64,000 nt of DNA from an uncultured Alphaproteobacteria bacterium (GCA_905236005.1 CAJONJ010000039.1:2612-66611), one strand, 5' to 3'. Shown: positions 2,349-25,633, counted from the first letter of the stretch. Numbers and translations are program-made. The notes: a model not told the origin generated them from the letters alone.

Positions 2349-2918
2349 ATGAAATTTAAATTATTATATTATGGCGATATTTTAACAAACCCAAAAAAAC
2401 GTGCTCAACACATAGCGGACATACGTATGCAATTTCATCCACAGCTAAAAAAACTGGTTACTTTGAAACCTTGGGATAATCTGAATAAATTTATGATGCC
2501 TGATGCAACCAAAAGCCCTGTGATAACCAGACATGTTGGTGGTATGGATTGGAATCCGATTATTACATCTAATTTAAAAATGATTGCAGAGCTGGACATT
2601 TTGTTAATGCACCCAGAAATTGTTGGTGTTCCACATTCAGATATAGATAATCGTGTAAAAACTATTCTGGACGGATTACGTTGTCCACAAAACGAACATG
2701 AAATCGGACAAAATACACCACGTGATATTGGTCCGATTTACACCTTGTTGGACGACGATCACCTGGTAACAAAATTAAGTGTTAACACCAGCCATTTATT
2801 GGCAAATGATATTTTCCCATGCAACATGCAAACAACACCAGATTCTATATTTATGTTGATTGATGTAAATGTTCGTGTGACCGAAGGCACACTGGAAAAC
2901 CTGCCATTTATGGTATAA
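2349..2918 (+). CDS. hypothetical protein, 189 aa
   Basis: Intact ORF followed by a strong bidirectional terminator. No recognisable motifs. Confidence 0.4.
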   Translation: MKFKLLYYGDILTNPKKRAQHIADIRMQFHPQLKKLVTLKPWDNLNKFMMPDATKSPVITRHVGGMDWNPIITSNLKMIAELDILLMHPEIVGVPHSDIDNRVKTILDGLRCPQNEHEIGQNTPRDIGPIYTLLDDDHLVTKLSVNTSHLLANDIFPCNMQTTPDSIFMLIDVNVRVTEGTLENLPFMV

Positions 2919-2932
2919 AAAAATTAAAAAAA

Positions 2933-2957
2933 GGCCGGCAAATGCCGGTCTTTTTTT
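2933..2957. terminator. bidirectional intrinsic terminator hairpin GGCCGGCAAATGCCGGTC flanked by A-run and T-run
   Basis: Perfect GC-rich stem-loop between convergent genes, with an A7 run upstream and a T7 run downstream. Confidence 0.65.
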
Positions 2958-2968
2958 GATTGTTTATT

Positions 2969-4039
2969 TTACATAATTGCAGATGTGATTTGTTCTTGCA
3001 TTTGAAATGTTCCAAACACAACCCACCCAATTATAACAGCGACTAAAATGATACCAATACTGTTTAACACATTAGCTATACTTTCCATTTTACGAACAGA
3101 TTCTTCCATATAATCACGTGCAATTTGATTTATATTTTTATCAAAATCGTTCATATCAGCATAAATTATTAAATCACCTATGATTTCTTCACTTGGAAAA
3201 TCTTTACCAGTTAACGCTAATGCATTACCTAAATTTTCACCGTTTGCAATATAATGTAACGTTTCTTCTAAAACAGCAGACAAATATCTGTTTGAATTAT
3301 CAGCCAATAAACGCATCGCATCTGGAACACTGACCCCAGCAGACACCATCGCAGCCAAAGACATCAACCAACTGACCGAAGACTGTAATTTATATGTACT
3401 CCATGGTGGCAATTTATCAAAAAACGTTCTGATTCTTCCTGTCCATATTGGCAATGACAACCAAATCAAAGCTATCAAAGCTACAAACACTGCACCAAAA
3501 ACAAACCAATATTTATTTGCAAACTCAGATGTCCAAACCAACGATGCCGCTGTTCCATGCCAAACAACTTCACTGCCCGCAGCCTCTGCCAAAGGTGGCA
3601 CCAAATACACTCCAACCATAACAACTATACCCACAGTCAAAACAAACAAAAACAAAGGATACGCAACAGCATTTAACATAGCACGTTTAATACGCCTGAT
3701 ACCACCAACAACACGACCAACGTTTTCCAAAGAAATCAACAAAGATGAAACATTACCAGACATTAACAACAAAGTTTCTTCATATGGAACCCAACCACGT
3801 GTTGCTTCTGCAAAAGTCATACCACGTTCCAAATTTTTTTGTATTTCACGCATAGCAATCGCAAATGGTTCGTTTGGTTTTTTACCATTTTTTGATTCTA
3901 TCATTTCAATTCTATTTAAGGCATCCATCAAAGTAAAATTGTTACGCAACAATGATGCAACCTTACGCGAAATAGCCATACGCTTGTCAGCATCTAATTT
4001 AAAAACTAATTTTGCATAAAGTATTTCTAACTTGTTCAT
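2969..4039 (-). CDS. GspF/PilC-family inner-membrane platform protein of a type IV filament/T2SS-like system
   Basis: 356 aa with three hydrophobic segments and two cytoplasmic helical domains. Its size resembles type IVb platforms of the BfpE/TcpE/PilR kind. It lies immediately downstream of a GspE-type ATPase. Confidence 0.65.
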   Translation of the reverse strand: MNKLEILYAKLVFKLDADKRMAISRKVASLLRNNFTLMDALNRIEMIESKNGKKPNEPFAIAMREIQKNLERGMTFAEATRGWVPYEETLLLMSGNVSSLLISLENVGRVVGGIRRIKRAMLNAVAYPLFLFVLTVGIVVMVGVYLVPPLAEAAGSEVVWHGTAASLVWTSEFANKYWFVFGAVFVALIALIWLSLPIWTGRIRTFFDKLPPWSTYKLQSSVSWLMSLAAMVSAGVSVPDAMRLLADNSNRYLSAVLEETLHYIANGENLGNALALTGKDFPSEEIIGDLIIYADMNDFDKNINQIARDYMEESVRKMESIANVLNSIGIILVAVIIGWVVFGTFQMQEQITSAIM

Positions 4040-4042
4040 ATT

Positions 4043-5674
4043 TTAATACACCCATGGTCTGTCCAACAATCCAACCCAACGTTCTAATTCATCAACTCCA
4101 ATAACACCACGCAACATCAATTCAGTAGCAGCCTCTTTTAATGTACGTCCGTTCATTTTTTCAAGCCAAAAACGCAATGCTGTTTCTGTTTCACCAGATA
4201 GAACCAAATTTAAAAATTCACTGTTAGTAATAATTATTTCACCAGCTTTGACACGACCAGCTGTTCCTGTTCCTTTGCAGTGTTCGCATCCTTGTCCACG
4301 AACATAAGTTTGTTGTAAACCTAAATCACCCAAAGCTTCCATAACACGATGATATGCAGGATGTGTTGGTTTATCAATCAGCCTTTCCCGACAATATGGA
4401 CAAAGCTTTTTAAACAACCGCATTGAAACCAAACCACGCAACATAGTTTCATCTTTTAATTTAAAAGCCTCTACCCCCATATCTAATAAACGAGTCAACG
4501 CACCCATCGCAGAATTAGCATGCAACGTTGTCCACACATTATGTCCAGACAAAGCACCCTTAACCGTCAATTGTGCTGCAGCCAAAGTTCGTATTTCTCC
4601 AACCATCAAAGTATCTGGGTCACTTCGCAAAGCCGCCGCTAATGCTTCTGTAAATTTTTCTTCACGTTGTTCTTCGTTTAATGCATTTACCACAGGCATC
4701 TGATGTGCACCGAATATTTTTTGTTCAGCTGGGTCTTCCACAGTAATCAAATTTATTTCATATCTGCGTTCTTTTAACATCAATGCCATATTACGAACTA
4801 ATGTTGTTGATTTTCCAGATGATGTTGGTCCAGCAACAACAACTAACCCTGTTGGTGCTGCACGTAAACGCAACAATAATTTTTGTTCATATTCATTAAA
4901 TTCCTGTTCTGTCTTTAATCCTTCACTGGGGTTATCATACAGCAAACGCATAACAACATATTGACTGCCAAAAGAAATCGGATTAAATTGCATTCTGATG
5001 CCTAACACCCCAGCTGGCAAAAATAAATCTTTGGTTCCACGTAACGGTGTCCGACCATCTTTTAACGCAGTTTGATATTCATTTTGTGCATAACTAGAAT
5101 TAGAAATATCAGCTGATGCAAACGCAGCACGTGTAAAAGATTCCCCCCATTGTGAATTATATTCCAACACAGGTTGCATGCTGCCATCTATACGAAAATA
5201 AATTGTTGTTTGATCTGCGACTTCTATATGAATATCAGATACCTTTTGAGCAGCCGCACGTGCAATAATATCTACAAAATCCTTTTGCATCTGATTATCA
5301 TAATCTTGATGCGAATGAATATATGTTCCCAGCCGTTCATCATTTGTTTTATATATATTAGAAATCAAACCTAAATCGGAATAAAATGGGCTTTTAACCA
5401 ATTTGCCATTTTGTTTCAACAAATCCAAAAAAGCCAACACACGTCCATCATACCTGTGTGTTCTAGAAATAATCAATTCCCCACCAGAAAAATATGCCAT
5501 CAAAGCTTGACTGTCTTTCGGCAAAGCTAATTCATCAGCAGATGCTGTTAACAAACGATTATTATTAGCAAACAAATAATCCAAAATATCTTTACTGTTG
5601 GCATTTTCCAACCCAGCCGGCACAGATGGATTTTTAGAATTACTGTTCAAATCTAATTTATCTGTATCAACCAT
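4043..5674 (-). CDS. GspE/PilB-family secretion ATPase
   Basis: Walker A motif GPTSSGKST, Asp box, His box (TLHANSAMG) and the tetracysteine motif CPYC...CEHC that is typical of GspE/PilB. Confidence 0.85.
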   Translation of the reverse strand: MVDTDKLDLNSNSKNPSVPAGLENANSKDILDYLFANNNRLLTASADELALPKDSQALMAYFSGGELIISRTHRYDGRVLAFLDLLKQNGKLVKSPFYSDLGLISNIYKTNDERLGTYIHSHQDYDNQMQKDFVDIIARAAAQKVSDIHIEVADQTTIYFRIDGSMQPVLEYNSQWGESFTRAAFASADISNSSYAQNEYQTALKDGRTPLRGTKDLFLPAGVLGIRMQFNPISFGSQYVVMRLLYDNPSEGLKTEQEFNEYEQKLLLRLRAAPTGLVVVAGPTSSGKSTTLVRNMALMLKERRYEINLITVEDPAEQKIFGAHQMPVVNALNEEQREEKFTEALAAALRSDPDTLMVGEIRTLAAAQLTVKGALSGHNVWTTLHANSAMGALTRLLDMGVEAFKLKDETMLRGLVSMRLFKKLCPYCRERLIDKPTHPAYHRVMEALGDLGLQQTYVRGQGCEHCKGTGTAGRVKAGEIIITNSEFLNLVLSGETETALRFWLEKMNGRTLKEAATELMLRGVIGVDELERWVGLLDRPWVY

Positions 5675-5675
5675 A

Positions 5676-6374
5676 TTATTTCCCGATATTTAAATTTTCA
5701 GAAACACCGTCTTTTTCAAAAATAATTCCTTCGTTTAAAGATATAGATTTCACTCTGTATCCATCTAATTCTTTACCTACTGAAATTCTTTTAGTTTGCC
5801 CAGAAGAAATATTTTCTACGGTTGCCTGCAATTGATTACCAATACCAGCAATATTTATCAATTTATATCTAGATGCTAGATTTCCTGATTCTTGTTTTTG
5901 TTGTCCAGATTTTTTTTCAACAGATTGTTTTTCTATAGAATCTTCTAAACTTTCTTTTTGTCTTTTTAAACTTTCAGCTTGTGCTTCTAATTCTTGCTGT
6001 TGATGTTCTGCACGACCAGACAAAGTATCTAATTCCATTTGTAATTTTAATTTTTCAGCATTTAATCTTTCCAGCTCTAAATCTAATTGTGCACGTTCTT
6101 TTTCCAGTTGCAAAACTACTTTGTCTTGTTCCAACAAAGTTATCTTTTCAAACAAAGAACCAGACATATCATATTCATCCAAAGCAGCTACAGAAACCCT
6201 GTCTGCAAAATCATCATCAGCAACTTCATTTACTGTCGCAATTTCTTGTGTTTGTATAACCTCTGGTTGTGATAATTCTTCTGATTCATCAGCAAACTCA
6301 TATTCATCTGCATTTGCACAAACCCCAGAAATCACCAACATACAACATAAAAATATTTTTAATTTTTTTAACAT
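5676..6374 (-). CDS. periplasmic coiled-coil protein with PilP-like C-terminal beta domain
   Basis: N-terminal signal peptide MLKKLKIFLCCMLVISGVCA, a long heptad-rich E/Q/L coiled coil, and a C-terminal YKLINIAGIG...VGKELDGYRV...IIFEKDG segment that resembles PilP/GspC secretin-interacting domains. Confidence 0.35.
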   Translation of the reverse strand: MLKKLKIFLCCMLVISGVCANADEYEFADESEELSQPEVIQTQEIATVNEVADDDFADRVSVAALDEYDMSGSLFEKITLLEQDKVVLQLEKERAQLDLELERLNAEKLKLQMELDTLSGRAEHQQQELEAQAESLKRQKESLEDSIEKQSVEKKSGQQKQESGNLASRYKLINIAGIGNQLQATVENISSGQTKRISVGKELDGYRVKSISLNEGIIFEKDGVSENLNIGK

Positions 6375-6384
6375 ATTTTCACCT

Positions 6385-7662
6385 TTATTTTGTATAAATA
6401 ATTACTTCGTATTGCCACATACGTGTAACAGCATTCCACGCAACAGATGTCATATACACACCATCAAAATCATTAAATATATGCATAAATTCTGTTGGTA
6501 TTAATTTAGACGCAGCAGAAATTTCAACGATATTCACACTTTCTGTATCTACACCATTTGTCACAGTATCTGTTACAGGATTTATATCTGCACGTATATT
6601 TATCTGTTGAAAATTCGTAGTAATATCACGCACGGCACTGGCTATATCACGTTCATCCAATGATGCATACGTTTTTAATTGTGGTAATCTAACACGAACC
6701 ATAACTTCGTTTTCAGACAATTGCTGAACCATTGCACCAGGCATTAATTCTGCACCATTAAGATAAAATTCATTTATTGTTCCAAAATTACGTGCAAATG
6801 TAACAGACACAAAATCTTCACCACATTTTGCATAGGTTTGATTCCACCCGGGAATTGGCTGCATAACAAACGCAATAGCTTTATAGCATAATTTGGCACG
6901 TTCCATAACATTTGGTAAATAATCGTATGGAAATTCGATTGGTGTAACTTCTTGTTTTGCTATATCTAATTGTTTTGCTAATTCTTGTTTTTTTAATTCA
7001 ATATTACGTTTATATTCTGCAACTAATTCAGGATTAGTCTGCACAGGTGATGATGAAAAAAATACACGTCTTATTTTATCACGAAACAAAACCCCACCAA
7101 CCAACAGAACCAAAACAAAAAATATAATCGTTGGCCAAATAGAATTAAAAACATTTATTGGATGCAGTCTGGCAGAAACAGAAGGACGTATTAATTCAGA
7201 AATAAATTTTTCCTGTGCCTTAGGCATTCCCCACGATGCAGGCGCAAACAAACCACCCCAATCAGGAATATTTGATAATTCTGTATATAATTTACGTGCT
7301 TGTTCTGCTGTTTCAATTAAAACATCACGAATTATTACACCATTACGCACAGCCACCAGATAAAAATAATTATTTACCTGAAAAACTCCTAAAAAAGACA
7401 CAAATTCAGACAAAGAATCAACAATTTCAGCTGCCGCACTTGGTAAACCAACATAAACCCCTGTGTTTTTATCACCCAAACCAACCATGGATTTATAATC
7501 TACAAATAATGTATATTTTTTATCTATATTTTTAGATAATTGCTTTGCATAATTTAACGCAGTATTACCAACACTGACAGGCTGCCAAAACAAGCCCGTT
7601 GCAAATTTTTTACGATGAACTGTTATTATTTGCTTTATCAATTCTCTCTCTGTTATACACAC
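6385..7662 (-). CDS. bitopic inner-membrane protein with GspL/PilO-like topology
   Basis: 425 aa. A cytoplasmic N-domain of about 180 aa is followed by a single TM (IWPTIIFFVLVLLVGGVLF) and a periplasmic C-domain of about 220 aa. Its position upstream of the ATPase and platform matches GspL or R64 PilO. Confidence 0.3.
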   Translation of the reverse strand: MCITERELIKQIITVHRKKFATGLFWQPVSVGNTALNYAKQLSKNIDKKYTLFVDYKSMVGLGDKNTGVYVGLPSAAAEIVDSLSEFVSFLGVFQVNNYFYLVAVRNGVIIRDVLIETAEQARKLYTELSNIPDWGGLFAPASWGMPKAQEKFISELIRPSVSARLHPINVFNSIWPTIIFFVLVLLVGGVLFRDKIRRVFFSSSPVQTNPELVAEYKRNIELKKQELAKQLDIAKQEVTPIEFPYDYLPNVMERAKLCYKAIAFVMQPIPGWNQTYAKCGEDFVSVTFARNFGTINEFYLNGAELMPGAMVQQLSENEVMVRVRLPQLKTYASLDERDIASAVRDITTNFQQINIRADINPVTDTVTNGVDTESVNIVEISAASKLIPTEFMHIFNDFDGVYMTSVAWNAVTRMWQYEVIIYTK

Positions 7663-7733
7663 ATTATAAACAAACGAACCAAAAAAATAAAGCCATATTT
7701 TATAATAAAAAGTCGTTAAAAAACGACTTTTTA

Positions 7734-8045
7734 TTATTTGTTACAATTATAAACTTTAACCTTTAATGTATACGTTTGTTTTGGTCCAAATATTGCACCA
7801 ACATTATCAGCAATTGATTCATTGACTATATAATAAGAATCACCACGTTTTTGTTGATTTAATATTTTTTGTTCCAAATAATTATACACATCTTCTTTGG
7901 TATAGTTTGTTATATCAGATGTCATAGTATATAAATACGTACAATCTTTTGGTTCTTGATATAATCTATTCAAACCTGTTCCTGCAGTTATTGTTTCAGC
8001 ACATGCGACCAATACCCCACATAAACAAATTATGCTTTTTTTCAT
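7734..8045 (-). CDS. small lipoprotein, 103 aa
   Basis: Signal peptide with lipobox LVAC. Its start overlaps the lpxC stop codon (ATGA). Confidence 0.4.
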   Translation of the reverse strand: MKKSIICLCGVLVACAETITAGTGLNRLYQEPKDCTYLYTMTSDITNYTKEDVYNYLEQKILNQQKRGDSYYIVNESIADNVGAIFGPKQTYTLKVKVYNCNK

Positions 8046-8986
8046 TTTTTCTCTCCTTTTGGTTCAACTATTTCATAGTTAGATTTATCACTAAATAATT
8101 TACGTAAAATTAAATTATTCAATGCATGTGAACCCTTATAAGATTGCACCCAACCACACAAAAAACCGCCTGATGTAAACATATCACCCAGTATATCTAT
8201 ACATTTATGACGAACAAATTCATCTGGATAATACAATTTATTCATAGTGGCATCCCATCTTGAATTCACAGCAATAACATTATGCAAATTACAACCTAGA
8301 CCCATACCATGACGTTTACAATATTCCCATTCAGAATATCCACCAAACGATCTAGATTTTGCAATATTATCAATAAAATCTTTTACAGATGCTTTTGAAC
8401 CATCAAAAGTATAAGAATACGACTGGGTTCCAATAATTTTATTATTATAATCTAAAATAGCATCTATTAACATCCCGTTATCATATGGTGCAATCCTAAT
8501 AAAGCCGTCAGTAGTCATTCTGCCACTAAAAATTTTTGCCTTAACACGTTGCCAAAACGGTAATGTTTTAATTAAATCTTTACTTTTTACTTCTACTGTT
8601 TTTTTAACAACTATTTTTTTCATTTTAGTCTTGTCAGAAACATATTTTTCTAATACTTTATATAACTCAAACGCACTTCCGTCCAAAAATGGTACTTCTG
8701 GTCCATCTATTTCAATAATTGCACTGTCTATACCCAACAAAAATAATACAGCCATTAAATGTTCAATTGTTCTGACATTTGCACCATTTTTTTTACCAAT
8801 TTGCGTACTGCGAAGCATTGTATCACATACATTATCAAACGTTGCAGGTATTAAATCAGAACCCTTGATATCTGTTCTTTTAAAGAAAATTCCTGTTTTT
8901 TTTGATGGCATCACAACCATATTCACAGGCAACCCCATATGCATACCAATACCAGATATCTTAACATTTTTTGTCACAGTAGTCAT
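8042..8986 (-). CDS. lpxC: UDP-3-O-acyl-N-acetylglucosamine deacetylase
   Basis: Conserved LpxC blocks including HxxE/GHALNN-like KGSHALNN and the zinc-binding His/Asp positions. 314 aa. Confidence 0.9.
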   Translation of the reverse strand: MTTVTKNVKISGIGMHMGLPVNMVVMPSKKTGIFFKRTDIKGSDLIPATFDNVCDTMLRSTQIGKKNGANVRTIEHLMAVLFLLGIDSAIIEIDGPEVPFLDGSAFELYKVLEKYVSDKTKMKKIVVKKTVEVKSKDLIKTLPFWQRVKAKIFSGRMTTDGFIRIAPYDNGMLIDAILDYNNKIIGTQSYSYTFDGSKASVKDFIDNIAKSRSFGGYSEWEYCKRHGMGLGCNLHNVIAVNSRWDATMNKLYYPDEFVRHKCIDILGDMFTSGGFLCGWVQSYKGSHALNNLILRKLFSDKSNYEIVEPKGEKK

Positions 8987-9891
8987 TTGTTTACTCCTTT
9001 ATATAGCCAATCATAAAAATTATTTTCTATTTCGGTGTTTAATTTTGCAAATCTAATTTCTTGTTTTGCCCAATCAGGTAACCTGACCCAATCTTTTTCC
9101 GTGGTTAATAATTTTGCATTTTTACTTTTTGCAACTGCAATTAAATCTTTAATATCTTTTTCAGTATATTGATAATGGTCTGGATACACACGTGTTTCAA
9201 TCAATTTACATGTAATACTGTTAAAGAATTTTTTTGGATAACCAATACCAGCAAACGCAATAACTGACGTTTTATTATCATATGGCGATACAGTTTGATT
9301 ATGTGCATAAAACACTGGTATATTTGTAGGCAACGCAAAATCAGGTGCAACATCTTTGTTTTTTATCACAATTATTGCATCTGCCCTGTGTATAGCAGAT
9401 TTAGGTTCACGCATTGGGCCAGCAGGTAACAAAAACCCATTTCCAAAACCAATACTTTCATCAAAAACCAACACTGAAATATCTTTTTTAATTGATGAAT
9501 TTTGGAAACCATCATCCATAATAATTGGTGTATTAGACTTTTGTTTATTTAACAAAATCAAATTACTTTTTCTGTCACCAACATGCACTAAAATACCGTC
9601 CCCAGACAACATCTTAGCTTCGTCCCCTATACCCTCAGTTTTTTTAGATTTCTTATACCCACGCATAACCACAGGTGCATCAAAATATTTTGCAACATTT
9701 CTGACTATTGGTGTTTTACCAACACCACCTGCCAGTATATTACCAAAACAAATAACAGGTCTTTTGGATACATATTCATGTTTTTTACGTAAATTAAAAA
9801 CAACACGTGACCCAATCCAATAAAACAAAGACAATGGCCACAAAACACATGCAATTATATTTCTTTTTAAAAACCATTTTGGTGTTTTCAT
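8983..9891 (-). CDS. lpxK: tetraacyldisaccharide 4'-kinase
   Basis: P-loop GNILAGGVGKTP and LpxK length/architecture. Its stop overlaps the lpxC start. Confidence 0.8.
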   Translation of the reverse strand: MKTPKWFLKRNIIACVLWPLSLFYWIGSRVVFNLRKKHEYVSKRPVICFGNILAGGVGKTPIVRNVAKYFDAPVVMRGYKKSKKTEGIGDEAKMLSGDGILVHVGDRKSNLILLNKQKSNTPIIMDDGFQNSSIKKDISVLVFDESIGFGNGFLLPAGPMREPKSAIHRADAIIVIKNKDVAPDFALPTNIPVFYAHNQTVSPYDNKTSVIAFAGIGYPKKFFNSITCKLIETRVYPDHYQYTEKDIKDLIAVAKSKNAKLLTTEKDWVRLPDWAKQEIRFAKLNTEIENNFYDWLYKGVNK

Positions 9892-10646
9892 AGCATTTTC
9901 GCTTTTTCTTTAAAATTATCTGGTGTCAAATCTTGTTCTACTTTAAAATCAGTAAAAATTTTATCCAAATCGTATGCTTGTTGCACCATGATATCTTCCA
10001 GATTTTTTCTTATATATTCAAAATCCGATATTTCTGTTTTTTTATCTATATAAATCGGCTGTCCAACAATTCCTTTGATAATTGAAAAAGGTCTAGTTAA
10101 CAAATATCTATCCCAACGATTTTGAAACCAAGGTCTGCTGCATGACACACAAACTGGAATAATTGGTGCACCTGTCATTTTCGCAAAATACAAAGCCCCA
10201 TCATGAAACCGCATAGATGGTCCATTTGGGCCATCTGGTGACAAAGCCAAACACTTTGTTCCCTGGGATAATACCTTTACCCCTTTTCTAAGAACAGACA
10301 CACCACCACCAAAAGAAGAACCGAACATAGCCTTTAAACCAAATAATCTTTCCAGTTTTGCAATGGCACGACCATCTTTGCGTGGGTCAGCAACAGCATA
10401 ACCACGAACACCAGCCATAGCAATCAAAGGCGACAACATCATAGTCCGTCCATGCCAAAACACAAAAATAGCAGGCTTTTTGCTAAATTTCTTTAAAATA
10501 CTGTAACCCTTTATATCTTTACGTGAAGTAAAATAAACAAACCAGATTAAAATACAGTAAATACAAGCAATTGGCCATTGCACAATTGCCCAACCAGAAA
10601 CATTATTCAAAAAACGTCTAAATCTTTTTTTTAAAGATTTTTGCAT
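9888..10646 (-). CDS. DUF374/lysophospholipid-acyltransferase-like protein commonly encoded beside kdtA/lpxK
   Basis: FWHGR and SPDGPNGP motifs. Overlaps the lpxK start. Confidence 0.5.
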   Translation of the reverse strand: MQKSLKKRFRRFLNNVSGWAIVQWPIACIYCILIWFVYFTSRKDIKGYSILKKFSKKPAIFVFWHGRTMMLSPLIAMAGVRGYAVADPRKDGRAIAKLERLFGLKAMFGSSFGGGVSVLRKGVKVLSQGTKCLALSPDGPNGPSMRFHDGALYFAKMTGAPIIPVCVSCSRPWFQNRWDRYLLTRPFSIIKGIVGQPIYIDKKTEISDFEYIRKNLEDIMVQQAYDLDKIFTDFKVEQDLTPDNFKEKAKML

Positions 10647-10741: not shown

Positions 10742-10769
10742 TTGACACAGAGGTTTAAAGCTATATAAT
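10742..10769 (+). promoter_or_regulatory. sigma70-type promoter TTGACA-N16-TATAAT driving tRNA-fMet
   Basis: Consensus -35 TTGACA at 10742-10747 and TATAAT at 10764-10769, with a 16-nt spacer, about 14 nt upstream of the tRNA 5' end. Confidence 0.5.
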
Positions 10770-10783
10770 ACAGATTACTTTAT

Positions 10784-10860
<77 letters not shown>

Positions 10861-10871
10861 GAGCTTCAAAA

Positions 10872-10903
10872 CTTGCCCATCGGGGCAAGTTTTTGTTTGT
10901 TTT
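10872..10903 (+). terminator. intrinsic terminator after tRNA-fMet
   Basis: CTTGCCC-ATCG-GGGCAAG hairpin followed by TTTTTGTTTGTTTT. Confidence 0.65.
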
Positions 10904-13221: not shown

Positions 13222-13270
13222 AGTTGAAAGTTTGATTTTAAAAAATACGATTTTTATAGTGCTTTTGAAC
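13222..13270. repeat. GTTCGAAAGT...CTTTTGAAC repeat, copy 3 (AGTTGAAAGT variant)
   Basis: See copy 1. Immediately follows the att-like repeat and overlaps the 3' end of the 13254 gene. Confidence 0.45.
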
Positions 13271-13847
13271 CGTCTTTTAATATTTTCCCTAAAATAGCCA
13301 TATCTAATTTTTCAAAATCTGGTTTATATAATTCAAATTTATCTTGCTGTTGAATCAATTTATCCCATAAAATATCAGATTGTTTTCTGGACATATTTGC
13401 AAAAACAGTTTTATCTTTTAAAACATATATTTTTATGTTTTTGTCTTTAATTTCCTGCATAATATCAATTGTAATAACATTTTTTATTTTCACATCTGTC
13501 AAAGAATAATATTCATCTTCTATATCATGTTTAAAACCAACAGAATCTAATTCATAAACATATGCTTTTTCTGGAACATTTTGCTTTAAACATTCAACAT
13601 ATAATTCATTATTTTTTACTGGGCTTTTATAACCGGTAGCAACTAATCGCATAATTGCATAAAGACGTGCACGTACAAAATCAGATGTTGCAAAAGCAGC
13701 AATTATTGGTGTTTTCATATTATTGATGTAACCTGGTTTCATACGAATAAAACCATCTGTTATTTTTATTTCAGACCCATGATAAAGAATTTTTGGTAAA
13801 CTGTTATTCATAACGGATATTATATCACAAACCATAAAATAATTCAA
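13254..13847 (-). CDS. hypothetical protein, 197 aa, translationally coupled to the upstream surface-protein gene (ATGA overlap)
   Basis: Intact ORF with no recognisable motifs. Confidence 0.4.
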   Translation of the reverse strand: MNYFMVCDIISVMNNSLPKILYHGSEIKITDGFIRMKPGYINNMKTPIIAAFATSDFVRARLYAIMRLVATGYKSPVKNNELYVECLKQNVPEKAYVYELDSVGFKHDIEDEYYSLTDVKIKNVITIDIMQEIKDKNIKIYVLKDKTVFANMSRKQSDILWDKLIQQQDKFELYKPDFEKLDMAILGKILKDGSKAL

Positions 13848-16833
13848 TTTACACTGACAGTATCGTCATAAATATAATAAACACCACTCGAAACACTTGT
13901 CCCAACTGGAATATTTACTTTCAAACTATTACCGCTTTGTAAATTACTGAAATCTGCATTCATTGGCACAAGTGTTGTTCCCATATTAGCATAAAAATCA
14001 GGAATGCCGTCATTATCAATATCAACATTTAATGACGGTGTCATTTGTTTTGTTCTGCGTAAATACACATATTTATCTCCAATATGTAATATATGACCAC
14101 ATTGTGCAGATTCCCACATACCAGCGGGTGCAAACAAACCACTTTGACAAGGTATTATTCCCTGATTGTTTATTTCATCAAAACTGTAAGTACCACCAGG
14201 ACAATAATTATTTACTGGACATTTCGAGCACACATTGCTGTTAGCTGGCAAATAATATCCATTATTACAAGACAAACTGCTTGCCACAACTTCTAAGCAA
14301 CCATTAACACTTGTGGTCGCACCATTTGCTGTACCGTCTGCTGTATATCCAGAATCGCATGTACATGTACTACGTGTATTCTTAGCTGGTGTGGAGCTGT
14401 TTGCGCCACATGCATAGCAAGATGTACTATCATATTTATAATAATTTGTCGCACACGTTTTACGTGCATAATATGTTGTTATAGCAGGGACTGCTGATGT
14501 AACTGGTGCAATTGTTGTAACGGTATTATCAGTAATATCCTGAGTTATTGCCCAACTTGTTGAAATATCATAATGTCCGTTACCACCTGGTGCAGGCAAA
14601 CTAATCGCTGGTAATGTGCACGCTGTATTGTAGAACAATTTTAATTGTGCATTAGTTGTACCTTCTGCCACACTAGCAACATAACATCCAATTCCAGACA
14701 ACCCCTCTATTACACCAGAATAACCGTTTTTATGTAATGTAATCATATAATAACAATCTGTCTGAACAGTAGAACCCACATCACTAGACCAACCCACACC
14801 TATCTCTGTCGCACAACTATTTATACCTTGATCAGTAGTATCAAAATACAATTGCCCCCCAGGGCACCAATTGCCAGCAGTGCAAGTTGTGCAAGTTTGC
14901 GAGTTTGCAGGTATATATTTACCTGCAGAACAAACTGTAAAACCATCCGCCAAGACGCAATCAGCAGAACTGGTCGATGTTTCTGTCAGTGTGATATCCC
15001 CAGGGGCACATTGGGTTCTTTGGCTGACTGAACCATAAGATGTCATACTAGCAGAAGAATAATAACCTATTCCAACATTTTCACAAGAGGACCCACCAAA
15101 TGTCCCCAAAACACCCCCAGCAACAAAATCGCCAGTTCCACTGTTACCAAAGAATCTACCACTAACCAGATCATACATACCAATTGCGTTATCAGACACA
15201 CGCCTAGCAGGTATAAAATCAAAAATTAACGTACTGTTTTCATACATTTTAAACCAATGTATGCGACCAGTTAACAGCGTGTCGTTACACCCACCAACAC
15301 AACCATTAGAAAACAATCTATATTTGTTATTTGAAATAATTGACCCACTAAAAGTACCAGATGTAGATGCGTTATCCACAGATAAAGATCTATTGTTACC
15401 TGTAAATTCGTATGTAATATGTTTTATCTCCCCAGCATTAAAAATTCCACCGACTGTTATTTTTGAACCTGTGCTCGAACCTTGAGCATTAGCAAATGCA
15501 ACCCATACACCAAATTTGTTTTCCTTAAAATTAGCCGCATGACCATTCAACGCGTCCTGATTTCCACCAAAATGCCCAAGAGTTCCAGAACCTTCTACCG
15601 AAGAACTATATTCAAGTTCCGCTTTAAAAGACGTTGAAGAAATCACATGGCCCGTATCAATATACTGTTTTCCATTTGCTTCTATATACGACAACCTTTC
15701 GTATTCACCTGTCCATTTTCCAGCAGGGCAACTGATTTTACAATCAGAAATAGACGTTTTTCCATCTTGTACATCACCATCATAACCCGATGGACACGGC
15801 AAACAGACACTTCCACTAAGATATTCCGCACCTGTACACGAGGTATGCTGAATTATCGCACAGGCTTTTTTGCTGTCCCAACTGTTTTTATACGCACTAT
15901 AATAAGTATCGGTAACATCATCTGTTCCATTTGGACAGCTTGTTACCATGTTGGATTTTTTAAATGCAGAATTAAATAAATTAGTAGCAGTTTGTCCATG
16001 TAACCCCAGGAAAGTATTACCAGGAATATATTGATTAGTCGTCGTAAAATTAACCTCAAAAAAAACGTATACATAAACATGTTGGCCGCAGCACCATCTA
16101 TATTTGGGAATAAATTATCTGGAAACACAGACAGCTTCTTGCATTGATAGAAAGCACTACGAAACATACTTTCTGCAGACCCATATGCATAACTAAACAA
16201 ACCATCAGGAATACCTGTCAAATTTGTACATTTATCAAAAACGGAACGAAACAAATTTTTCTTCGCGGTTGTTACACCAGAAAATAAATTCCCAGAAATT
16301 GTTTGCAACTCTGTACACCCGTTGCATAAATCAAAAAACGTTGGTTTGTCACTGTCATTAGTACCACCATTCAGCGTCGGAAAAGCCGAACCAATACTGC
16401 CATCTAAAGAAGCAATAAGAGTTGGTGTTCCACCGGTGCGTGTTGATATATTGTTGTTTGAAGCACCAAATCTGATTGCGGCACCAGATGAATCTTTATC
16501 ATTATTATAACTTGTTGTATTATATCCTGTTGCAAGTCCTGCAAATTTTATTATTCTTTGACCAGCCGTCGCATAAGTATGAGAGTATTCTGTCGGGGTA
16601 GTATTGTTATTTCGTGTAATGATTTCCACAGAGCTTCCATCATTCCAATCAACATAGAATATTCCTGATGCCGATAAAACAAATTTAAATACCGCATTTG
16701 CATTCAGGTTTGTCGTAGTTATTGTAAATTTTGTATCAACACAACCGTTTCCTGTATCTATTTCAGATGCCGTACACGCAACAGCCACTGTAATATTCAT
16801 CACGAATATACAAAGTGCACATATAAAACACAA
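13844..16833 (-). pseudogene. frameshifted or phase-variable large secreted surface protein (BspA-like LRR N-region plus Cys-rich CPxG repeat region), about 1000 aa if restored
   Basis: The track gives two ORFs (15943..16833 and 13844..15949) overlapping by 7 nt. The 3' 45 codons of the upstream ORF are low-complexity junk that begins exactly at the A8 tract at 16058-16065. Adding one A fuses the frames in phase (...NMFMYTFFFEVNFTTTNQYIPGNTFLGLHGQTATNLFNSAFKKSNMVTSCPNG...). The protein has an N-terminal signal peptide, LRR-like FxxCxxLTxIPDxLF repeats and many CxxCPxG motifs. Confidence 0.55.
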
Positions 16834-17002: not shown

Positions 17003-20000
17003 TTATATATTTTCATAAACACCGTATAAATCAGGACTTGGTTGTACAGTTTGTCCATCTGTAATTTTTTCTCGCAATCTTTTATTTGCTAATTTTAACG
17101 CATTAACAATACTTAATTTTCCAGGAACCATACTATTTGATTGTTCTAAATTTTTAATTCTGTCTGTTGGAACCAATGTTGGTTTATAATCTTTAACATC
17201 TTCTATGTTTATAATTTTATCTAATATTTTAATTTTTTTATGGTTATGATTGTATTTAACAGACATATTTTTATTTAAAATTTTAGATATCATTTTATAA
17301 AACAAATCATTTTTAATACCCATATCGTCTGTAAAGGTATCATTAACATTTTTATCAATAACACCTGATGTTTTAAGTGCAACAATAATATCAAAAAAAT
17401 CTTTATCGGTTAAACTTTTACCAGGATGGTGTTTACCATCTTCATCTATAAATGGCTTTTTATATTCAATTATATCAGACAAAGCCAACAAGCCACGTCT
17501 GACACATTCAAGATATTCAGAATGTTTTTGTTTTATCAATTCTTTTTCTATGACACTAGTATCTGGCACTTGTATATTTGGCATATTCAGCATCGGTTCA
17601 TATTTGTTTTCGGCAAAAAACATATTACGTAAATCAGATTGATAATATTTATACATAATCTTGGTTATGTATTTTTTTATTGTTTCATCATTATTTTGAA
17701 TATCGTTTATTGCTTTATTTAAAACATCTGATATTGATTTATCTTTTCTAGAATTCTGTATAATTTTATAAATTAACAACCCCAATAATCTTCTATCTAT
17801 ATCACTTGGTAAATTATCTATTTGTGCACCAGTATCAAAAATACCTATATGAACAACACCTTCTTGATCTGTATAAAAATTTTGCTGTCCAGCATGCCTA
17901 TCTGTATCCCATTTTTTACCAGATAACAATATTGCTAGTTCCAAAGCAACATATGCTTTTGCGTTATCATGTTGTTGTTTATCTGTATGTTTTGCACTGG
18001 TCAAAGAATCACCTTTGGCTAATTTCATAATTTTAAAAGCATTTTTATTATTTGGCATTGCACCAAACGCAACCCATTCAGCCACATCCACTTTATATTT
18101 TTGATTATTTAAACTGATTTCAAAAGGCGAATAATTATCAACAGCTTGTTTATATTTTTCATAATCTTTGTCGATATCTATTTCGTTATGACAAGATTTT
18201 TCTGCTTGTTCAAAAATATTTTTTAAAACACCAAATTTCTTTTCATCTCGCCACACCATAGATTTAATAGTTCCAGAAATAAAATCCAAATTTGTCATCA
18301 TTTTGTTTTGAATATTTTCACGCATTAACGCAACAACACAATCTTGGTTATCATATTTTACCTGAACTGTAACATAAATAGAACCAGCACCTAAAACATC
18401 ACCAACATAAGATATTTTACTATATTCTTCTGACGGCAAAGATTGTTTCAACATATCAAAAATTTCTTTACGATCTGGAACACTTGCTTTATCACGCAAA
18501 GTTGCTAGTTCTGTTCGTATTTCTGCTGGCAAAGATGGTAAATACGATAACATTTGTCCAAATTTTATAAATGCATCACCTTTGTATTGGAAAAAACCTT
18601 TTAATCCACGACCAATTTGTTGATTAGAATCTGTATTTTTTACAACATTGTTTGTTTTCACCATTGTTAATAATGTGCACAAATCAAAATTACGTTCCGC
18701 CATGGTTTCATTATTATATACAGATTCGATAACTACACCTATGGCGTTTTTTGTTTCTTCATCTGTTTTCATACTTTTAAATATTCTATTTAAAACAAAT
18801 TGTATTTTTTCGTCTGGATTTTTGCTGTAACCATCTAATAATGGATTCAAAAAATATGCCTGAACCGGTAATGGCGAATGTGAAAAATTATCATGAATTT
18901 GTTCTAAAACTTGTTTATTTCCCCACTCTTCTTTTCCAAAAAAAGGCTTATTTTGAATTGCTGATAAAAATTTATTGCAAGATTCATCTGTAAAATTATT
19001 TGTTAAAAATTCTATACCTTCTTCTGCTAAATTGCTGACACATAAAAAATCCACAACATTTTGTGCAATACGTACAGGCCAATCATATTTCACAGCATCT
19101 TCATTACCTGCTTTGCTTTTATATTTAGCATCAAATAAATTTGCAATTTCAAATTGTGCAGTAATTTTATCTGCTATTTTTTTACTTAAATTTTCAATAC
19201 ATATATTTATACCTTCTTTGTTTATTGTTTTTAAATTATCCAACCATTTTACACAAGAATCCACTTTGTTTAAATAATCCATTTGTCTGGTATCTTTACC
19301 CAAACGCACAGCCCAATAATTTGCGATATAATCTAATAATTTTTCCCTTTCGGTCATTACACCCAAACATCTTTTTTCTTTATATTCACCATATTCTTGC
19401 AATAAAATATTCACAGCTAATCTTAAACGATTGTTTGTTTCCTGTGTATTAAAATTCGTTTCGTTAATTTTATACTTGGTTATATCATTAACCAATATTT
19501 TTAACATATCGTTTTTATGTGTAAAATATGTAGAGAAAAATTTATATTTTAACATATAATCATATATATCAATTTTATCTTGAACTGAATATTTTTTATA
19601 TGATTCTACATTAATACGCTTATCAATAAAATTCTGTTGAGGCAGTTTCAGTCCTATAATAAAATGGTCAAATAATTTATTATCTTTTGAAAATTTTACA
19701 AAATCTATTACATCTAATTCATATTTAGCCATATAATTAAATAATACTAAATTAAAAATAAATTCATCACTATCTTTTAACGTATAACAAATATTATATA
19801 ATTCATCTTTATTTTTTGGTGGTGTTATACCCAGAAAATCTAATATTTTTTGTGTTTTGTTTGCATCATCTATATTAGAACCATTTGCTAATATATGATA
19901 AGCTAATGATATAAATTGTGAATATTTTAATACACCAGAATATTTTTCAATAACATATTTATTATTAATCGCATGTTCCAGAATTATTTCTGAATCTTTT

Positions 20001-21745: not shown

Positions 21746-21855
21746 AATTTTACCTTTATTTTTTTATTTTTCAGCAATAATTATAACAAATTTTACAGTT
21801 AAAAAAAACAGTTTTATGATATCTAGGACAATCTATTAAATTAAATATATTGATG

Positions 21856-22470
21856 TTATATTAAACATTTTTTTAAATTTTCACCTGTATCATTTTGATC
21901 AACATGTTTATTACGAATTTCTTCTTCTGCTTTGATACGTTGTTTTAACAAAATAATATCAGGATGATTTTGTATTTTTTCATTGATTTTATCTATGGCA
22001 GATTCTATATCTTGTTGATTTTTCACAAAAATTGGTGTAATAGAATCAGCAGCAGACATCACAGATTGCTTTAATAAATCTGCATTATCATCTATGATTG
22101 ATAAATATGCACGTATATGTTCATCTTCATGTTGTAAAATTGCGTTATATGAACAACTGTCTGGCTTATGAGAAATATCTATTTGAACCAAAAAATCAGA
22201 ATATCCAATAACAGCATCTACATTTTTCAATGCGACACAAAAACCATCTTCAATAGAAGTTATATCTGTTGTTATTTCATAATTATCAACCATTGTTGCA
22301 ATAACTTCACCATGTAATATATCCATCTGTTGCAAAGGTTGAACCACACTTTTTTCCCAAGATGGATTTTTTATATTTATTTTTGGTGTTAATTTATATC
22401 CTAAACAATCATCTCCAAAAGATATTGTTGGAACAAATAAAATTAATAAAAACAAATAAAATAATCTCAT
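21856..22470 (-). CDS. small secreted protein with HEXXH motif (HEDEH), 204 aa
   Basis: Signal peptide MRLFYLFLLILFVPTISFG. Motif LQHEDEHIRAY. Encoded between virB4 and the giant gene with only a 3-nt gap to virB4. Confidence 0.45.
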   Translation of the reverse strand: MRLFYLFLLILFVPTISFGDDCLGYKLTPKINIKNPSWEKSVVQPLQQMDILHGEVIATMVDNYEITTDITSIEDGFCVALKNVDAVIGYSDFLVQIDISHKPDSCSYNAILQHEDEHIRAYLSIIDDNADLLKQSVMSAADSITPIFVKNQQDIESAIDKINEKIQNHPDIILLKQRIKAEEEIRNKHVDQNDTGENLKKCLI

Positions 22471-22473
22471 GAA

Positions 22474-24888: not shown

Positions 24889-24891
24889 ATC

Positions 24892-25251
24892 TTATACCAC
24901 TAACCTTTTTGGAATTTTATTTCTTAATAATCTTAATTTAGAAAATATTATTTGTGCTATTTGTGGGTCACGTTTAGAATAAATACCTAAAATAGAATGA
25001 GATAATATTAAACAACCTAAAAAACTGAGTGGTAAAGCGAAACTGTTTACACCAAAAACTAAACTAAAAACCAATAACACAATAAATAAAACAAACCAAA
25101 ATATAAAATTTAATATAGCAAGAGAATACGGCACATAAAATATGCGTGGTGGATTTGCCAAAGCTTTTAGAACTTTTTGTTTCAAAACTCCCTCTCCTGA
25201 TATACTAATTATAACAATTTCAACTTTTTTCAACAAGCATAAAAGTAACAA
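24892..25251 (-). CDS. virB3: type IV secretion system protein VirB3
   Basis: About 100-120 aa with two TM segments and an LKALANPPRIFYVPY-like VirB3 N-motif. Lies immediately upstream of virB4. Confidence 0.55.
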   Translation of the reverse strand: MLLLCLLKKVEIVIISISGEGVLKQKVLKALANPPRIFYVPYSLAILNFIFWFVLFIVLLVFSLVFGVNSFALPLSFLGCLILSHSILGIYSKRDPQIAQIIFSKLRLLRNKIPKRLVV

Positions 25252-25405: not shown

Positions 25406-25498
25406 CTAACAGACATAATAAAAACAATAAATAAATATAATAAATATTTGATTTTTTATAAAACTGGTTTATAATTGCCCAGTAAAAAGGATTTTGAT

Positions 25499-25633
25499 AT
25501 GAAATTTTTAAGTTCTTTAAAAGCTTGGAAAAAACGCGGAAATATTAAACAAATTCGTCGTGGAAAACAAGTTATATTAATTGACCCTGCAAATCCAAAA
25601 TTAAAGGCAAAACAGGGCTTTAAACGGAAATAA
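25499..25633 (+). CDS. rpmJ: 50S ribosomal protein bL36 (zinc-independent YkgO/alpha-type)
   Basis: 44 aa, MKFLSSLKAWKKRGNIKQIRRGKQVILIDPANPKLKAKQGFKRK. Close to the E. coli YkgO / Rickettsia L36 pattern MKVxxSLK...RRGKxxVI...NPRFKAxQG. Missed by the ORF track because of its size. Confidence 0.7.
   Translation: MKFLSSLKAWKKRGNIKQIRRGKQVILIDPANPKLKAKQGFKRK

What the first reader, a model, noticed from the sequence alone, without database searches (positions are those of the whole stretch)
2969..10646. Minimal type-IV-filament / T2SS-like module translationally chained to lipid A genes lpxK-lpxC
Eight minus-strand genes are packed head-to-tail, several with overlapping stop/start codons (ATGA at 9888-9891, 8983-8986 and 8042-8045). 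The order is a DUF374 acyltransferase-like gene, lpxK, lpxC, a 103-aa lipoprotein, a 425-aa bitopic protein (cytoplasmic domain, one TM, periplasmic domain), a 232-aa signal-peptide coiled-coil protein with a PilP-like C-terminus, a GspE/PilB ATPase with a tetracysteine motif, and a 356-aa GspF-family platform. The last four match the size and order of pilO-pilP-pilQ-pilR of IncI1-type type IVb pili, or GspL-M-E-F of a T2SS. The window contains no pilin, prepilin peptidase or secretin. A filament-assembly core co-transcribed with outer-membrane lipid A biosynthesis is unusual. In an intracellular bacterium it may be a reduced, repurposed secretion or surface-assembly machine.
Basis: partly seen in the sequence, partly recalled or inferred. 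Interest (0 to 1): 0.7.

Follow-up and report, generated by a model that had tools for sequence, protein, structure and literature searches.

The report
Stripped-down type IVb pilus core operon
A tiny-genome gut alphaproteobacterium (Candidatus Enterousia group) keeps only the four inner-membrane "engine" genes of a plasmid-type type IVb pilus as a separate, highly conserved operon that merely sits beside ordinary lipid A genes; where its filament and outer-membrane parts are encoded, if anywhere, is unknown.

Summary

All three ATGA overlaps lie inside the lipid A block (DUF374-lpxK-lpxC-lipoprotein). A 71-nt spacer separates that block from pilO2. It holds a terminator-like hairpin and a sigma-70 promoter. 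Both are conserved in position across about 78 species-level genomes, so the pil genes form their own operon.

The organism belongs to the uncultured gut/rumen order Rs-D84 (Ca. Enterousia; genomes under 1 Mb). Its lifestyle is unknown, and it has not been shown to be intracellular.

The four-gene order is kept in all 80 genomes examined. The ATPase is 82% identical on average, with every catalytic motif intact. Sister lineages and 80 metagenome loci all keep TcpQ-secretin directly upstream of pilO2; only this clade lacks them there. No pilin, peptidase or secretin lies within about 81 kb here or within ±10 kb in 80 genomes. Whole genomes could not be searched. PilP keeps a secretin-docking HR domain, so an outer-membrane partner probably exists elsewhere. 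Verdict: a new variant of a known kind, of moderate interest.

The parts
2969..4039 (-). pilR-like polytopic inner-membrane platform (356 aa; three TM segments; two T2SSF domains)
   Evidence: Pfam T2SSF 9.2e-25 with 2 stretches. Profile from three R64/PAPI-type PilR references: best loci about 1e-98. 34.6% identical to Bosea plasmid PilR. TM segments at 129-147, 180-198 and 324-342.
4043..5674 (-). pilQ-like type IVb extension ATPase (543 aa) with Walker A, Asp box, Walker B, His box and a CxxC...CxxC zinc motif
   Evidence: Pfam T2SSE 2.7e-67. Best solved relative is BfpD 8dze, 7.5e-74, full length. All motifs intact in 81/81 orthologues. Mean 82% identity across 80 genomes.
5676..6374 (-). 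pilP-like periplasmic adaptor (232 aa): signal-like N-terminal helix, acidic linker, about 70-residue conserved coiled coil, C-terminal HR beta-domain
6385..7662 (-). pilO2-like bitopic protein (425 aa as called): cytoplasmic actin-like domain, one TM (175-193), periplasmic GspL/PilO-like domain. The start codon is uncertain; relatives start at the position of 7641.
7663..7691 (-). Promoter-like element of the pil operon: -35-like TTTATT (7686-7691), 17-nt spacer, -10 TATAAT (7663-7668). In more distant relatives it reads TTGCCA-N15-TGnTATAAT.
   Evidence: Sequence read. An extended -10 promoter motif is found in 69/78 orthologous spacers, 14-20 nt after the hairpin.
7702..7737 (-). Intrinsic-terminator-like hairpin (core stem 7707-7732, AAAAAGTCGTT-TTTT-AACGACTTTTT) plus T-tract, ending the lipid A/lipoprotein operon
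   Evidence: RNA fold dG -18.4 kcal/mol, z -4.23, 0/200 shuffles as good. A hairpin plus T-run is present in 68/78 orthologous spacers, with quite different stem sequences.
2922..2961 (.). Bidirectional terminator between pilR and the convergent 189-aa gene; the 3' end of the pil operon
   Evidence: 18-bp stem with 6 GC pairs, T-runs on both strands.
7734..10646 (-). Neighbouring, separate operon: DUF374 (9888-10646), lpxK (8983-9891), lpxC (8042-8986) and a 103-aa lipoprotein (7734-8045), joined by three ATGA overlaps. Not part of the pilus machine.
   Evidence: Pfam/NCBIfam hits above cutoffs for DUF374, LpxK and LpxC. ATGA overlaps verified. The lipoprotein matches no family and is unrelated to TcpQ or PilM.

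Best explanation
The four genes at 2969-7662 are a self-contained operon. They encode the inner-membrane and cytoplasmic assembly core of an R64/PAPI-1-type type IVb pilus.

Shown here:
- The family identities of the four proteins.
- The operon's own promoter-like element, and terminator-like hairpins on both sides.
- Vertical inheritance of the gene order across the Ca. Enterousia / Rs-D84 clade.
- The adjacent DUF374-lpxK-lpxC-lipoprotein operon is an ordinary lipid A unit that ends at the terminator. It is a neighbour, not a partner.

Inferred from homology (how it works):
- The ATPase hexamer docks on the cytoplasmic actin-like domain of PilO2 and on the PilR platform. It uses ATP to lift pilin subunits out of the inner membrane into a growing filament.
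- PilO2's periplasmic domain and PilP's coiled coil form the periplasmic alignment ring.
- PilP's HR domain docks that ring onto an outer-membrane channel.

Inferred from comparison (origin):
- The operon descends from a chromosomal unknown-TcpQ-secretin-PilO2-PilP-ATPase-platform operon that sister lineages still keep.
- In this clade the TcpQ-secretin half left the locus. The pilin genes had already been uncoupled earlier.

Not shown (most likely scenario):
- Pilin(s), a prepilin peptidase and an outer-membrane partner are encoded elsewhere in the 0.7-1 Mb genome.
- The filament mediates attachment to a partner cell or host surface, possibly together with the VirB-type type IV secretion system whose virB3-virB4 genes lie 15 kb away.
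For: Family identity:
- ATPase: BfpD 7.5e-74.
- Profiles from three annotated T4b operons reach E of about 1e-36 (PilO2), 1e-119 (ATPase) and 1e-98 (platform) in the best loci, and match in essentially every locus.

Own operon:
- Hairpin plus T-tract in the spacer, conserved in 68/78 loci.
- Promoter motif conserved in 69/78 loci. The spacer is never shorter than 60 nt.
- Strong terminator after pilR.

Functional and vertically inherited:
- Same gene order in all 80 species-level genomes.
- ATPase mean identity 82%, against 89% for GyrB and 58-65% for LpxC/LpxK.
- All catalytic motifs intact in 81/81 orthologues.

Ancestry:
- Sister clade (ATPase 52-53% identical) has TcpQ-Secretin-PAP_PilO-x-T2SSE-T2SSF on chromosomal contigs.
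- All 80 metagenome secretin loci keep secretin followed by pilO2.

Dispersal of pilins is plausible:
- Only 2 of 12 sister-type loci have a prepilin nearby, against 33 of 41 generic T4b loci.
- L098 has two prepilins 5 kb from its operon.

The retained, conserved HR domain in PilP implies a docking partner.
Against: - No pilin, prepilin peptidase, secretin, TcpQ, PilM or PilV was found in the 64-kb window, in 17 kb of extra flank, or within ±10 kb in 80 genomes.
- The metagenome scan found no orphan PilN-type secretin.
- So a complete machine is inferred, not shown.
- The published genomic survey of Rs-D84 lists no type IV pili for this order (PMC12306168).
- In this particular genome, the TTG start codon used by close relatives for pilO2 reads TTA. 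Translation initiation of the first gene is therefore unclear.
- The terminator and promoter are sequence predictions without transcript data.
Confidence: 0.6

Rival explanations
1. The clade really has no pilin-type filament channel of the canonical kind. The four-protein core has been repurposed and works without a PilN-type secretin. For example, PilP's HR domain might dock on the outer-membrane core of the VirB type IV secretion system (as the DotF HR-like domain does in Dot/Icm), or the core might drive a short periplasmic pseudopilus.
For: - No secretin or TcpQ was found with reference or sister-clade queries in about 81 kb of this genome or in 80 genomes' flanks.
- No orphan secretin of this type was found in metagenomes, while every other lineage keeps it fused to pilO2.
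- virB3/virB4 lie at 22474-25251.
- The Rs-D84 genome survey reports no type IV pili.
Against: - Only about 10% of one genome and a single region of the others were searched.
- No extension ATPase/platform pair is known (to my knowledge) to work without pilin-like substrates.
- Pilin genes are demonstrably dispersed in a related lineage (L098).
Confidence: 0.17
2. The module works as a type II secretion-like piston (GspL-GspC/M-GspE-GspF equivalents) that exports proteins, rather than as a surface pilus.
For: - The PilO2 periplasmic domain matches PulL/XcpY/EpsL and EpsM.
- No retraction ATPase or adhesin gene is linked.
Against: - By sequence, all four proteins are T4b-type: PF06864, TIGR03021, BfpD far better than GspE, and T4b platform profile 1e-98 against GspF 8e-18.
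- HR domains and GspL-like folds are shared by all type IV filament systems, so the fold matches do not discriminate.
- The ancestral operon carries TcpQ plus a PilN-type lipoprotein secretin, typical of T4b pili.
Confidence: 0.12
3. One reading: the filament core is co-transcribed and functionally coupled with lipid A biosynthesis as one eight-gene unit.
For: - The adjacency DUF374-lpxK-lpxC-lipoprotein-pilO2 is conserved in nearly all 80 genomes.
- Some terminator read-through is always possible.
Against: - The spacer carries a conserved hairpin plus T-tract and a conserved promoter, and is never shorter than 60 nt.
- Synteny extends equally to the unrelated gyrB and a convergent gene. This indicates general genome stasis rather than functional linkage.
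- Sister lineages have the pil operon next to entirely different genes.
Confidence: 0.06
4. The four genes are a decaying remnant of an integrated conjugative element or plasmid pil operon, with no present function.
For: - The closest annotated relatives are on conjugative plasmids and ICE-like elements.
- The operon is truncated at both ends relative to them.
Against: - It is conserved in order and reading frame in 80 species-level genomes.
- ATPase identity is 78-93%, with all catalytic motifs intact in 81/81.
- The promoter is conserved.
- These genomes are streamlined, with about 90% coding density (PMC12306168).
Confidence: 0.02

Closest known systems
R64 (IncI1) thin pilus / PAPI-1 type IVb pilus assembly genes pilO2-pilP2-pilQ2-pilR2 (annotated examples: Bosea pBSY19_1, Methylovorus pMsip01, a P. 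aeruginosa plasmid)
   Same: - The same four families in the same order, with similar sizes: PilO2 425 vs 439-446 aa; ATPase 543 vs 497-642 aa; platform 356 vs 356-364 aa.
- ATPase and platform are 31-35% identical; PilO2 is about 26% identical.
   Different: - The reference operons are mobile-element borne and contiguous with TcpQ and the PilN secretin upstream, and with PilS pilin, a PilT-like ATPase, PilM and PilV downstream.
- Here the core is chromosomal, clade-wide, and stripped of all of those at the locus.
- PilP here is longer than two of the three references (232 vs 148 and 173 aa; the Bosea one is 307 aa) and has a highly conserved coiled coil.
Chromosomal T4b-like operon of the sister lineage of uncultured gut/rumen Alphaproteobacteria (L087-L089; e.g. 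GCA_017559525.1)
   Same: - Closest relatives of all four proteins: ATPase 53%, platform 44%, PilO2 27%, PilP-like 26%.
- Chromosomal context.
- No pilin gene directly after the platform.
   Different: - The sister lineage keeps an unknown 366-aa protein, TcpQ and a 546-aa secretin directly upstream of pilO2.
- Its ATPase has a 150-250-aa N-terminal extension.
- It has no lipid A genes nearby.
Bundle-forming pilus of enteropathogenic E. coli (BfpC bitopic protein, BfpD ATPase, BfpE platform)
   Same: - BfpD is the best solved-structure relative of the ATPase (7.5e-74, full length).
   Different: Bfp is a plasmid-encoded 14-gene operon with bundlin, a peptidase, a secretin and a retraction ATPase. 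Sequence identity to it is low.
Type II secretion system inner-membrane platform (GspL, GspC/GspM, GspE, GspF)
   Same: - The same architecture of parts: a bitopic actin-like/ferredoxin-like protein, an HR-domain adaptor, a zinc-binding ATPase and a polytopic platform.
   Different: Sequence profiles place every component in the T4b families, not the Gsp families. No pseudopilins or GspD were found.

Membership tests
R64/PAPI-1-type type IVb pilus machinery | PilO2 (PF06864) bitopic protein with an actin-like cytoplasmic domain | tested here: met
R64/PAPI-1-type type IVb pilus machinery | PilP (TIGR03021) adaptor encoded between pilO2 and the ATPase gene | tested here: met
R64/PAPI-1-type type IVb pilus machinery | GspE/PilB-superfamily extension ATPase of T4b type with intact motifs and a zinc site | tested here: met
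   T2SSE 2.7e-67. BfpD is the best PDB relative. Motifs intact in 81/81.
R64/PAPI-1-type type IVb pilus machinery | GspF/PilC-family platform with two T2SSF domains | tested here: met
   T2SSF 9.2e-25 with 2 stretches. T4b PilR profile, best loci about 1e-98. Three TM segments.
R64/PAPI-1-type type IVb pilus machinery | PilN-type lipoprotein secretin (with TcpQ/PilL) encoded with the core | tested here: not met
   There were no hits with reference or sister-clade secretin and TcpQ queries in the window, its flanks or 80 genomes' ±10 kb. No orphan secretin was found in the metagenome scan. Presence elsewhere in the genome was not testable.
R64/PAPI-1-type type IVb pilus machinery | Major pilin PilS and minor pilin/adhesin PilV with a class III signal peptide | tested here: not met
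   No prepilin was found by profile or by motif scan. The positive control recovered PilS and PilV in the reference operons. This covers the locus and flanks only; the whole genome was not testable.
R64/PAPI-1-type type IVb pilus machinery | Prepilin peptidase (A24), either its own or borrowed from another system | not testable with these tools
   None lies in the window or flanks (Pfam scans). Several known T4b operons also lack their own (PMC3984277). A whole-genome search is needed.
Type II secretion system | GspE/GspF/GspL/GspM equivalog-level matches, plus GspD and pseudopilins GspG-K | tested here: not met
   GspE TIGR02533 scores 223 bits against a cutoff of 630. GspF TIGR02120 scores 65 bits against 424. 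No GspD or pseudopilins were found.
   The spacer is 71 nt (median 106 nt in relatives) with a hairpin plus T-tract and a promoter motif, conserved in 68/78 and 69/78 loci.

The most novel reading that the evidence does not exclude
The whole Ca. Enterousia / Rs-D84 clade has discarded the canonical secretin, and possibly canonical pilins. It runs a four-protein type IVb inner-membrane motor against a different outer-membrane partner. One candidate is the VirB-type type IV secretion core, reached through the DotF-like HR domain of PilP. That would be a hybrid contact or feeding machine in a partner-dependent, reduced-genome gut bacterium.
Probability: 0.12. Interest if true: 0.8.

Novelty: new variant of a known kind. 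Interest (0 to 1): 0.42.

Why it matters
Rs-D84 / Ca. Enterousia are widespread gut and rumen bacteria. Their genomes are under 1 Mb and lack most biosynthesis, and they are thought to depend on other cells. How they contact a partner is unknown. The one genomic survey found for this order lists no pili for it (PMC12306168).

A type IVb pilus motor whose ATPase is nearly as conserved as GyrB, kept in every genome examined, is a strong candidate for that contact apparatus. Other reduced-genome epibionts are known to rely on type IV pili in a similar way (my own knowledge, not tested here).

The locus also shows stepwise dismantling of a plasmid-type pil operon:
- full operon on plasmids;
- pilin genes uncoupled in the sister lineages;
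- secretin also uncoupled in this clade.

If whole genomes prove to lack a secretin, this would be a new way of using a type IV filament motor.

As a caution, this case shows that conserved adjacency and tight packing in a streamlined genome do not by themselves indicate co-transcription.

Tried and rejected
- Prepilin motif scans (G/A/S-x4-E plus a hydrophobic stretch) gave only false positives inside larger genes, both in the window and across all fetched Enterousia DNA.
- HMMs of TcpQ, PilN, PilS, PilM and PilV built from three annotated operons gave no hits. The closer sister-clade TcpQ, secretin and flanking unknowns also gave no hits, as did the L098 pilins.
- The 103-aa lipoprotein as a TcpQ/PilM/pilotin analogue: hhalign probabilities of 1% or less; no Pfam or PDB sequence match across 78 orthologues. 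It belongs to the upstream operon.
- The convergent 189-aa gene as a pilus part: no signal peptide or TM segment; no Pfam, NCBIfam or PDB hit. Rejected as a pilin.
- Extending beyond the window showed only housekeeping and envelope genes.
- The PilP profile against PDB sequences gave only coiled-coil noise. The fold search was needed.
- Whole-genome searching of a complete Rs-D84 chromosome was not possible.
- The rival 'decaying ICE remnant' was rejected on the conservation data.

Full report
**1. The observation**

The eight minus-strand ORFs exist at exactly the stated coordinates and sizes. The minus-strand sequence at 9888-9891, 8983-8986 and 8042-8045 is ATGA in each case.

Pfam and NCBIfam give these results:
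- DUF374 (41.5 bits), LpxK (214 bits) and LpxC (225 bits) for the three upstream enzymes.
- No family for the 103-aa lipoprotein.
- PF06864 PAP_PilO (37 bits, cutoff 26.7) for the 425-aa protein.
- TIGR03021 pilP_fam (30.9 bits, cutoff 34.65) for the 232-aa protein.
- T2SSE (227 bits) for the 543-aa protein.
- T2SSF (two stretches, 87.5 bits) for the 356-aa protein.

The ATPase carries CPYC...CEHC. Nearly all ORFs of 90 aa or more were scanned, and none matches a secretin or an A24 peptidase. A class III signal-peptide scan finds no prepilin.

**2. What organism this is**

The window is chromosomal. It holds gyrB, dnaG, topA, rodA, pbp2, mreBC, pheST, ileS, metG, four tRNAs, virB3-virB4 and more.

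A scan of one genome per species found 201 loci encoding this ATPase. The best 80 are 78-93% identical. All come from uncultured gut, rumen or faecal Alphaproteobacteria, many named Candidatus Enterousia.

The literature places Enterousia in the GTDB order Rs-D84. These genomes are under 1 Mb and lack respiration and most biosynthesis. They have no flagella and are predicted to depend on a partner organism. That paper mentions type IV pili only for a different lineage (PMC12306168). Rs-D84 MAGs also occur in termite guts with and without flagellates (PMC11257099). 'Intracellular' is therefore unproven.

**3. The pil genes are not chained to the lipid A genes**

All three ATGA overlaps join DUF374/lpxK, lpxK/lpxC and lpxC/lipoprotein. 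Between the lipoprotein stop (7734) and pilO2 lie 71 nt.

That spacer contains:
- AAAAAGTCGTT-TTTT-AACGACTTTTT, flanked by A- and T-tracts. It folds at -18.4 kcal/mol, z = -4.2, and none of 200 shuffles folds as well.
- A TATAAT box at 7663-7668.

In 77 orthologous loci this spacer has a median of 106 nt and is never below 60 nt. The junctions inside each block are -26 to about +20 nt. Of 78 spacers, 68 have a hairpin plus T-run by a strict rule. The stems differ completely between lineages (AAAGTCGTA.., ACCCGCCG.., CAGGGGGC.., ACCGTTAA..), which is the pattern expected of a conserved intrinsic terminator. Most of the misses, including the window itself (which failed the strict rule), show a hairpin on RNA folding.

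Also, 69 of 78 have TTGnnn-N15-TGnTATAAT 14-20 nt downstream, followed by GAGAGAGA and a start codon. A strong bidirectional terminator (2922-2961) follows pilR.

So pilO2-pilP-pilQ-pilR is its own transcription unit, with internal gaps of 10, 1 and 3 nt. The lipoprotein belongs to the lipid A operon.

The conserved adjacency does not argue for functional coupling:
- The same synteny extends to a convergent 189-aa gene and gyrB in 55 or more of 80 genomes.
- Sister lineages have the pil operon next to unrelated genes.

**4. What the four proteins are**

- ATPase. Its best solved relative is BfpD, the T4b bundle-forming-pilus extension ATPase (7.5e-74, full length). GspE scores 8.5e-44 and T4a PilF/PilB about 1e-41 or weaker. 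On plasmids the best matches (34%) sit in operons annotated TcpQ / PilN / PilO2 / PilP / ATPase / platform / major pilin / PilM / PilV.
- Profiles. Profiles built from those three operons reach E of about 1e-36 (PilO2), 1e-119 (ATPase) and 1e-98 (platform) in the best loci. They recover all three in essentially every Enterousia locus, and PilP weakly but always at the same ORF.
- PilP. TIGR03021 hits 80 of 81 PilP orthologues (best 4.7e-12). hhalign aligns the C-terminal 60 columns to reference PilP (E 1.5e-4).

The T4b reading is preferred over the T2SS reading.

**5. Conservation**

Mean amino-acid identity to the window across the 80 genomes:

| Protein | Mean identity |
|---|---|
| GyrB | 89% |
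| ATPase | 82% |
| 189-aa convergent ORF | 81% |
| Platform | 71.5% |
| LpxK | 65% |
| DUF374 | 61% |
| LpxC | 58% |
| PilO2 | 53% |
| PilP | 52% |
| Lipoprotein | 41% |

Walker A, Asp box, Walker B, His box and the tetracysteine are intact in 81/81 ATPases. This is a functional, strongly constrained machine, not a relic.

**6. The missing parts**

Reference-operon profiles for TcpQ, PilN, PilS, PilM and PilV find nothing in the window or in ±10 kb of 80 genomes. The motif scan recovers PilS and PilV in the references but finds nothing credible in the Enterousia DNA. Seven kb beyond gyrB and 10 kb beyond the right edge hold only housekeeping and envelope genes.

A search of 1.84 billion representatives shows the nearest non-Enterousia ATPases at 52-53% identity, then 41%, then about 37%.

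The 52-53% clade is also from uncultured Alphaproteobacteria and is chromosomal. It has [366-aa unknown]-TcpQ-Secretin-PAP_PilO-[321-387-aa PilP-like]-T2SSE-T2SSF, with no pilin after the platform. Its secretin, TcpQ and flanking unknowns have no counterpart in the Enterousia data.

A metagenome scan with a secretin alignment returned 80 loci. Wherever the contig allows, the secretin is followed by pilO2 and then the ATPase and platform. No orphan secretin appeared, and none is linked to an Enterousia-type ATPase.

Prepilin genes lie beside 33 of 41 generic T4b loci but only 2 of 12 sister-type loci. One of these, L098, has two tandem prepilins (KG|RSM[V/I]EML...) 5 kb from its operon, behind housekeeping genes.

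The most economical history is stepwise dispersal. Pilin genes left the operon first. Then, in the Enterousia clade, TcpQ-secretin left as well, and a new promoter served the remaining four genes.

**7. Mechanism and confidence**

Shown:
- Family identities.
- Operon boundaries, at the level of sequence prediction with comparative support.
- Conservation.
- The derived, stripped architecture.

Inferred from homology:
- The ATPase hexamer on PilO2's cytoplasmic domain and the PilR platform polymerises pilins.
- PilP's HR domain docks on an outer-membrane channel.

Not shown:
- That pilins, a peptidase and a channel exist in these genomes.
- What the filament binds.

I put 0.6 on 'core of a working T4b filament machine whose other genes are elsewhere'. 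The rivals are:
- about 0.17 on a truly secretin-less or repurposed machine;
- about 0.12 on a secretion-piston role;
- about 0.06 on real co-transcription with lipid A genes;
- about 0.02 on a relic.

**8. Novelty**

The components are known families. NCBI already names orthologues 'type 4b pilus protein PilO2' and 'ATPase, T2SS/T4P/T4SS family', while PilP is left 'hypothetical'.

New here:
- A chromosomal, clade-wide four-gene core lacking the secretin and pilin genes that accompany it in every other lineage sampled.
- Its presence in an order whose published description lists no pili.

I rate it a new variant of a known kind, of moderate interest. The interest would rise sharply if complete genomes prove to lack a secretin.

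Noticed in passing
window 7639-7662 (minus strand): Close relatives start pilO2 with TTG right after a GAGAGAGAA Shine-Dalgarno-like run. In this genome that codon is TTA (7641-7639). The ORF caller falls back on a GTG at 7662-7660, which abuts the predicted -10 box and would probably lie upstream of the transcript start. How pilO2 is initiated here is unclear (in-frame ATA next door, read error, or a different transcription start site).
   Followed up: partly
window 2349-2918 (+): A convergent 189-aa ORF directly after pilR is one of the most conserved genes of the region: 81% mean identity across genomes and 88% mean column identity in the alignment. It has no Pfam, NCBIfam or PDB sequence match, and no signal peptide or TM segment. 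By eye it contains a RusA-like 'DIDNRVKTILDGL ... LLDDD' motif. That resemblance was not tested.
   Followed up: partly
window 13254-16833 (minus strand): Three consecutive ORFs (197, 701 and 296 aa) match no family. The 701-aa protein is very cysteine-rich, with repeated C-x2-C / 'NWCPGG'-like motifs. Homologues sit at different positions in a few other genomes, and one sister-clade locus has a 39%-identical relative. They may be variable surface proteins or adhesins.
   Followed up: no
window 17003-25251 (minus strand): A partial VirB-type type IV secretion cluster: virB3 (24892-25251), virB4 (22474-24888, TIGR00929 3.6e-114), a 204-aa unknown, and a 1580-aa giant protein. The giant protein has weak N-terminal HtpX/M48-like and central UbiB-kinase-like matches. 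No other VirB components are in the window.
   Followed up: partly
window 10742-10893 (+): A perfect 12/12 sigma-70 consensus promoter (TTGACA-16-TATAAT) at 10742-10769 precedes tRNA-Met (10784-10860). An 11-bp terminator hairpin follows at 10868-10893. This compact tRNA unit is wedged between the lipid A operon and the next gene.
   Followed up: no
L084 15913-16497 (about 5 kb beyond the window's left edge): A PagL-family lipid A deacylase gene lies a few kb downstream of gyrB, so lipid A synthesis and remodelling genes flank the pil operon on both sides. The flank also holds GT2 and UDP-galactopyranose mutase genes.
   Followed up: no
L087 3409-3795; L098 147-1111: In the sister lineage, a TrbC/VirB2-family (type IV secretion pilin) gene sits about 1.4 kb upstream of the unknown-TcpQ-secretin-PilO2 operon on the opposite strand. 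In the intermediate lineage L098, two tandem type IV prepilin genes with Cys-rich C-termini lie 5 kb upstream.
   Followed up: partly
L041 (CAVGNU010000019.1) and L054 (OZ246409.1): Two public records that carry this Enterousia-type operon are labelled 'Bacteroides fragilis' and 'uncultured Muribaculaceae bacterium' (the latter a 716-kb 'chromosome'). Given the gene content and about 80% ATPase identity to Enterousia, these look like taxonomic mislabels or binning errors.
   Followed up: no
window 25475-25633 (+) and 25689-26387 (-): A 52-aa ORF resembling a type-B ribosomal protein L36 (by eye). Beside it is a short 232-aa SufBD-core-like protein (PF01458 1.6e-09) standing alone next to virB3.
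   Followed up: no
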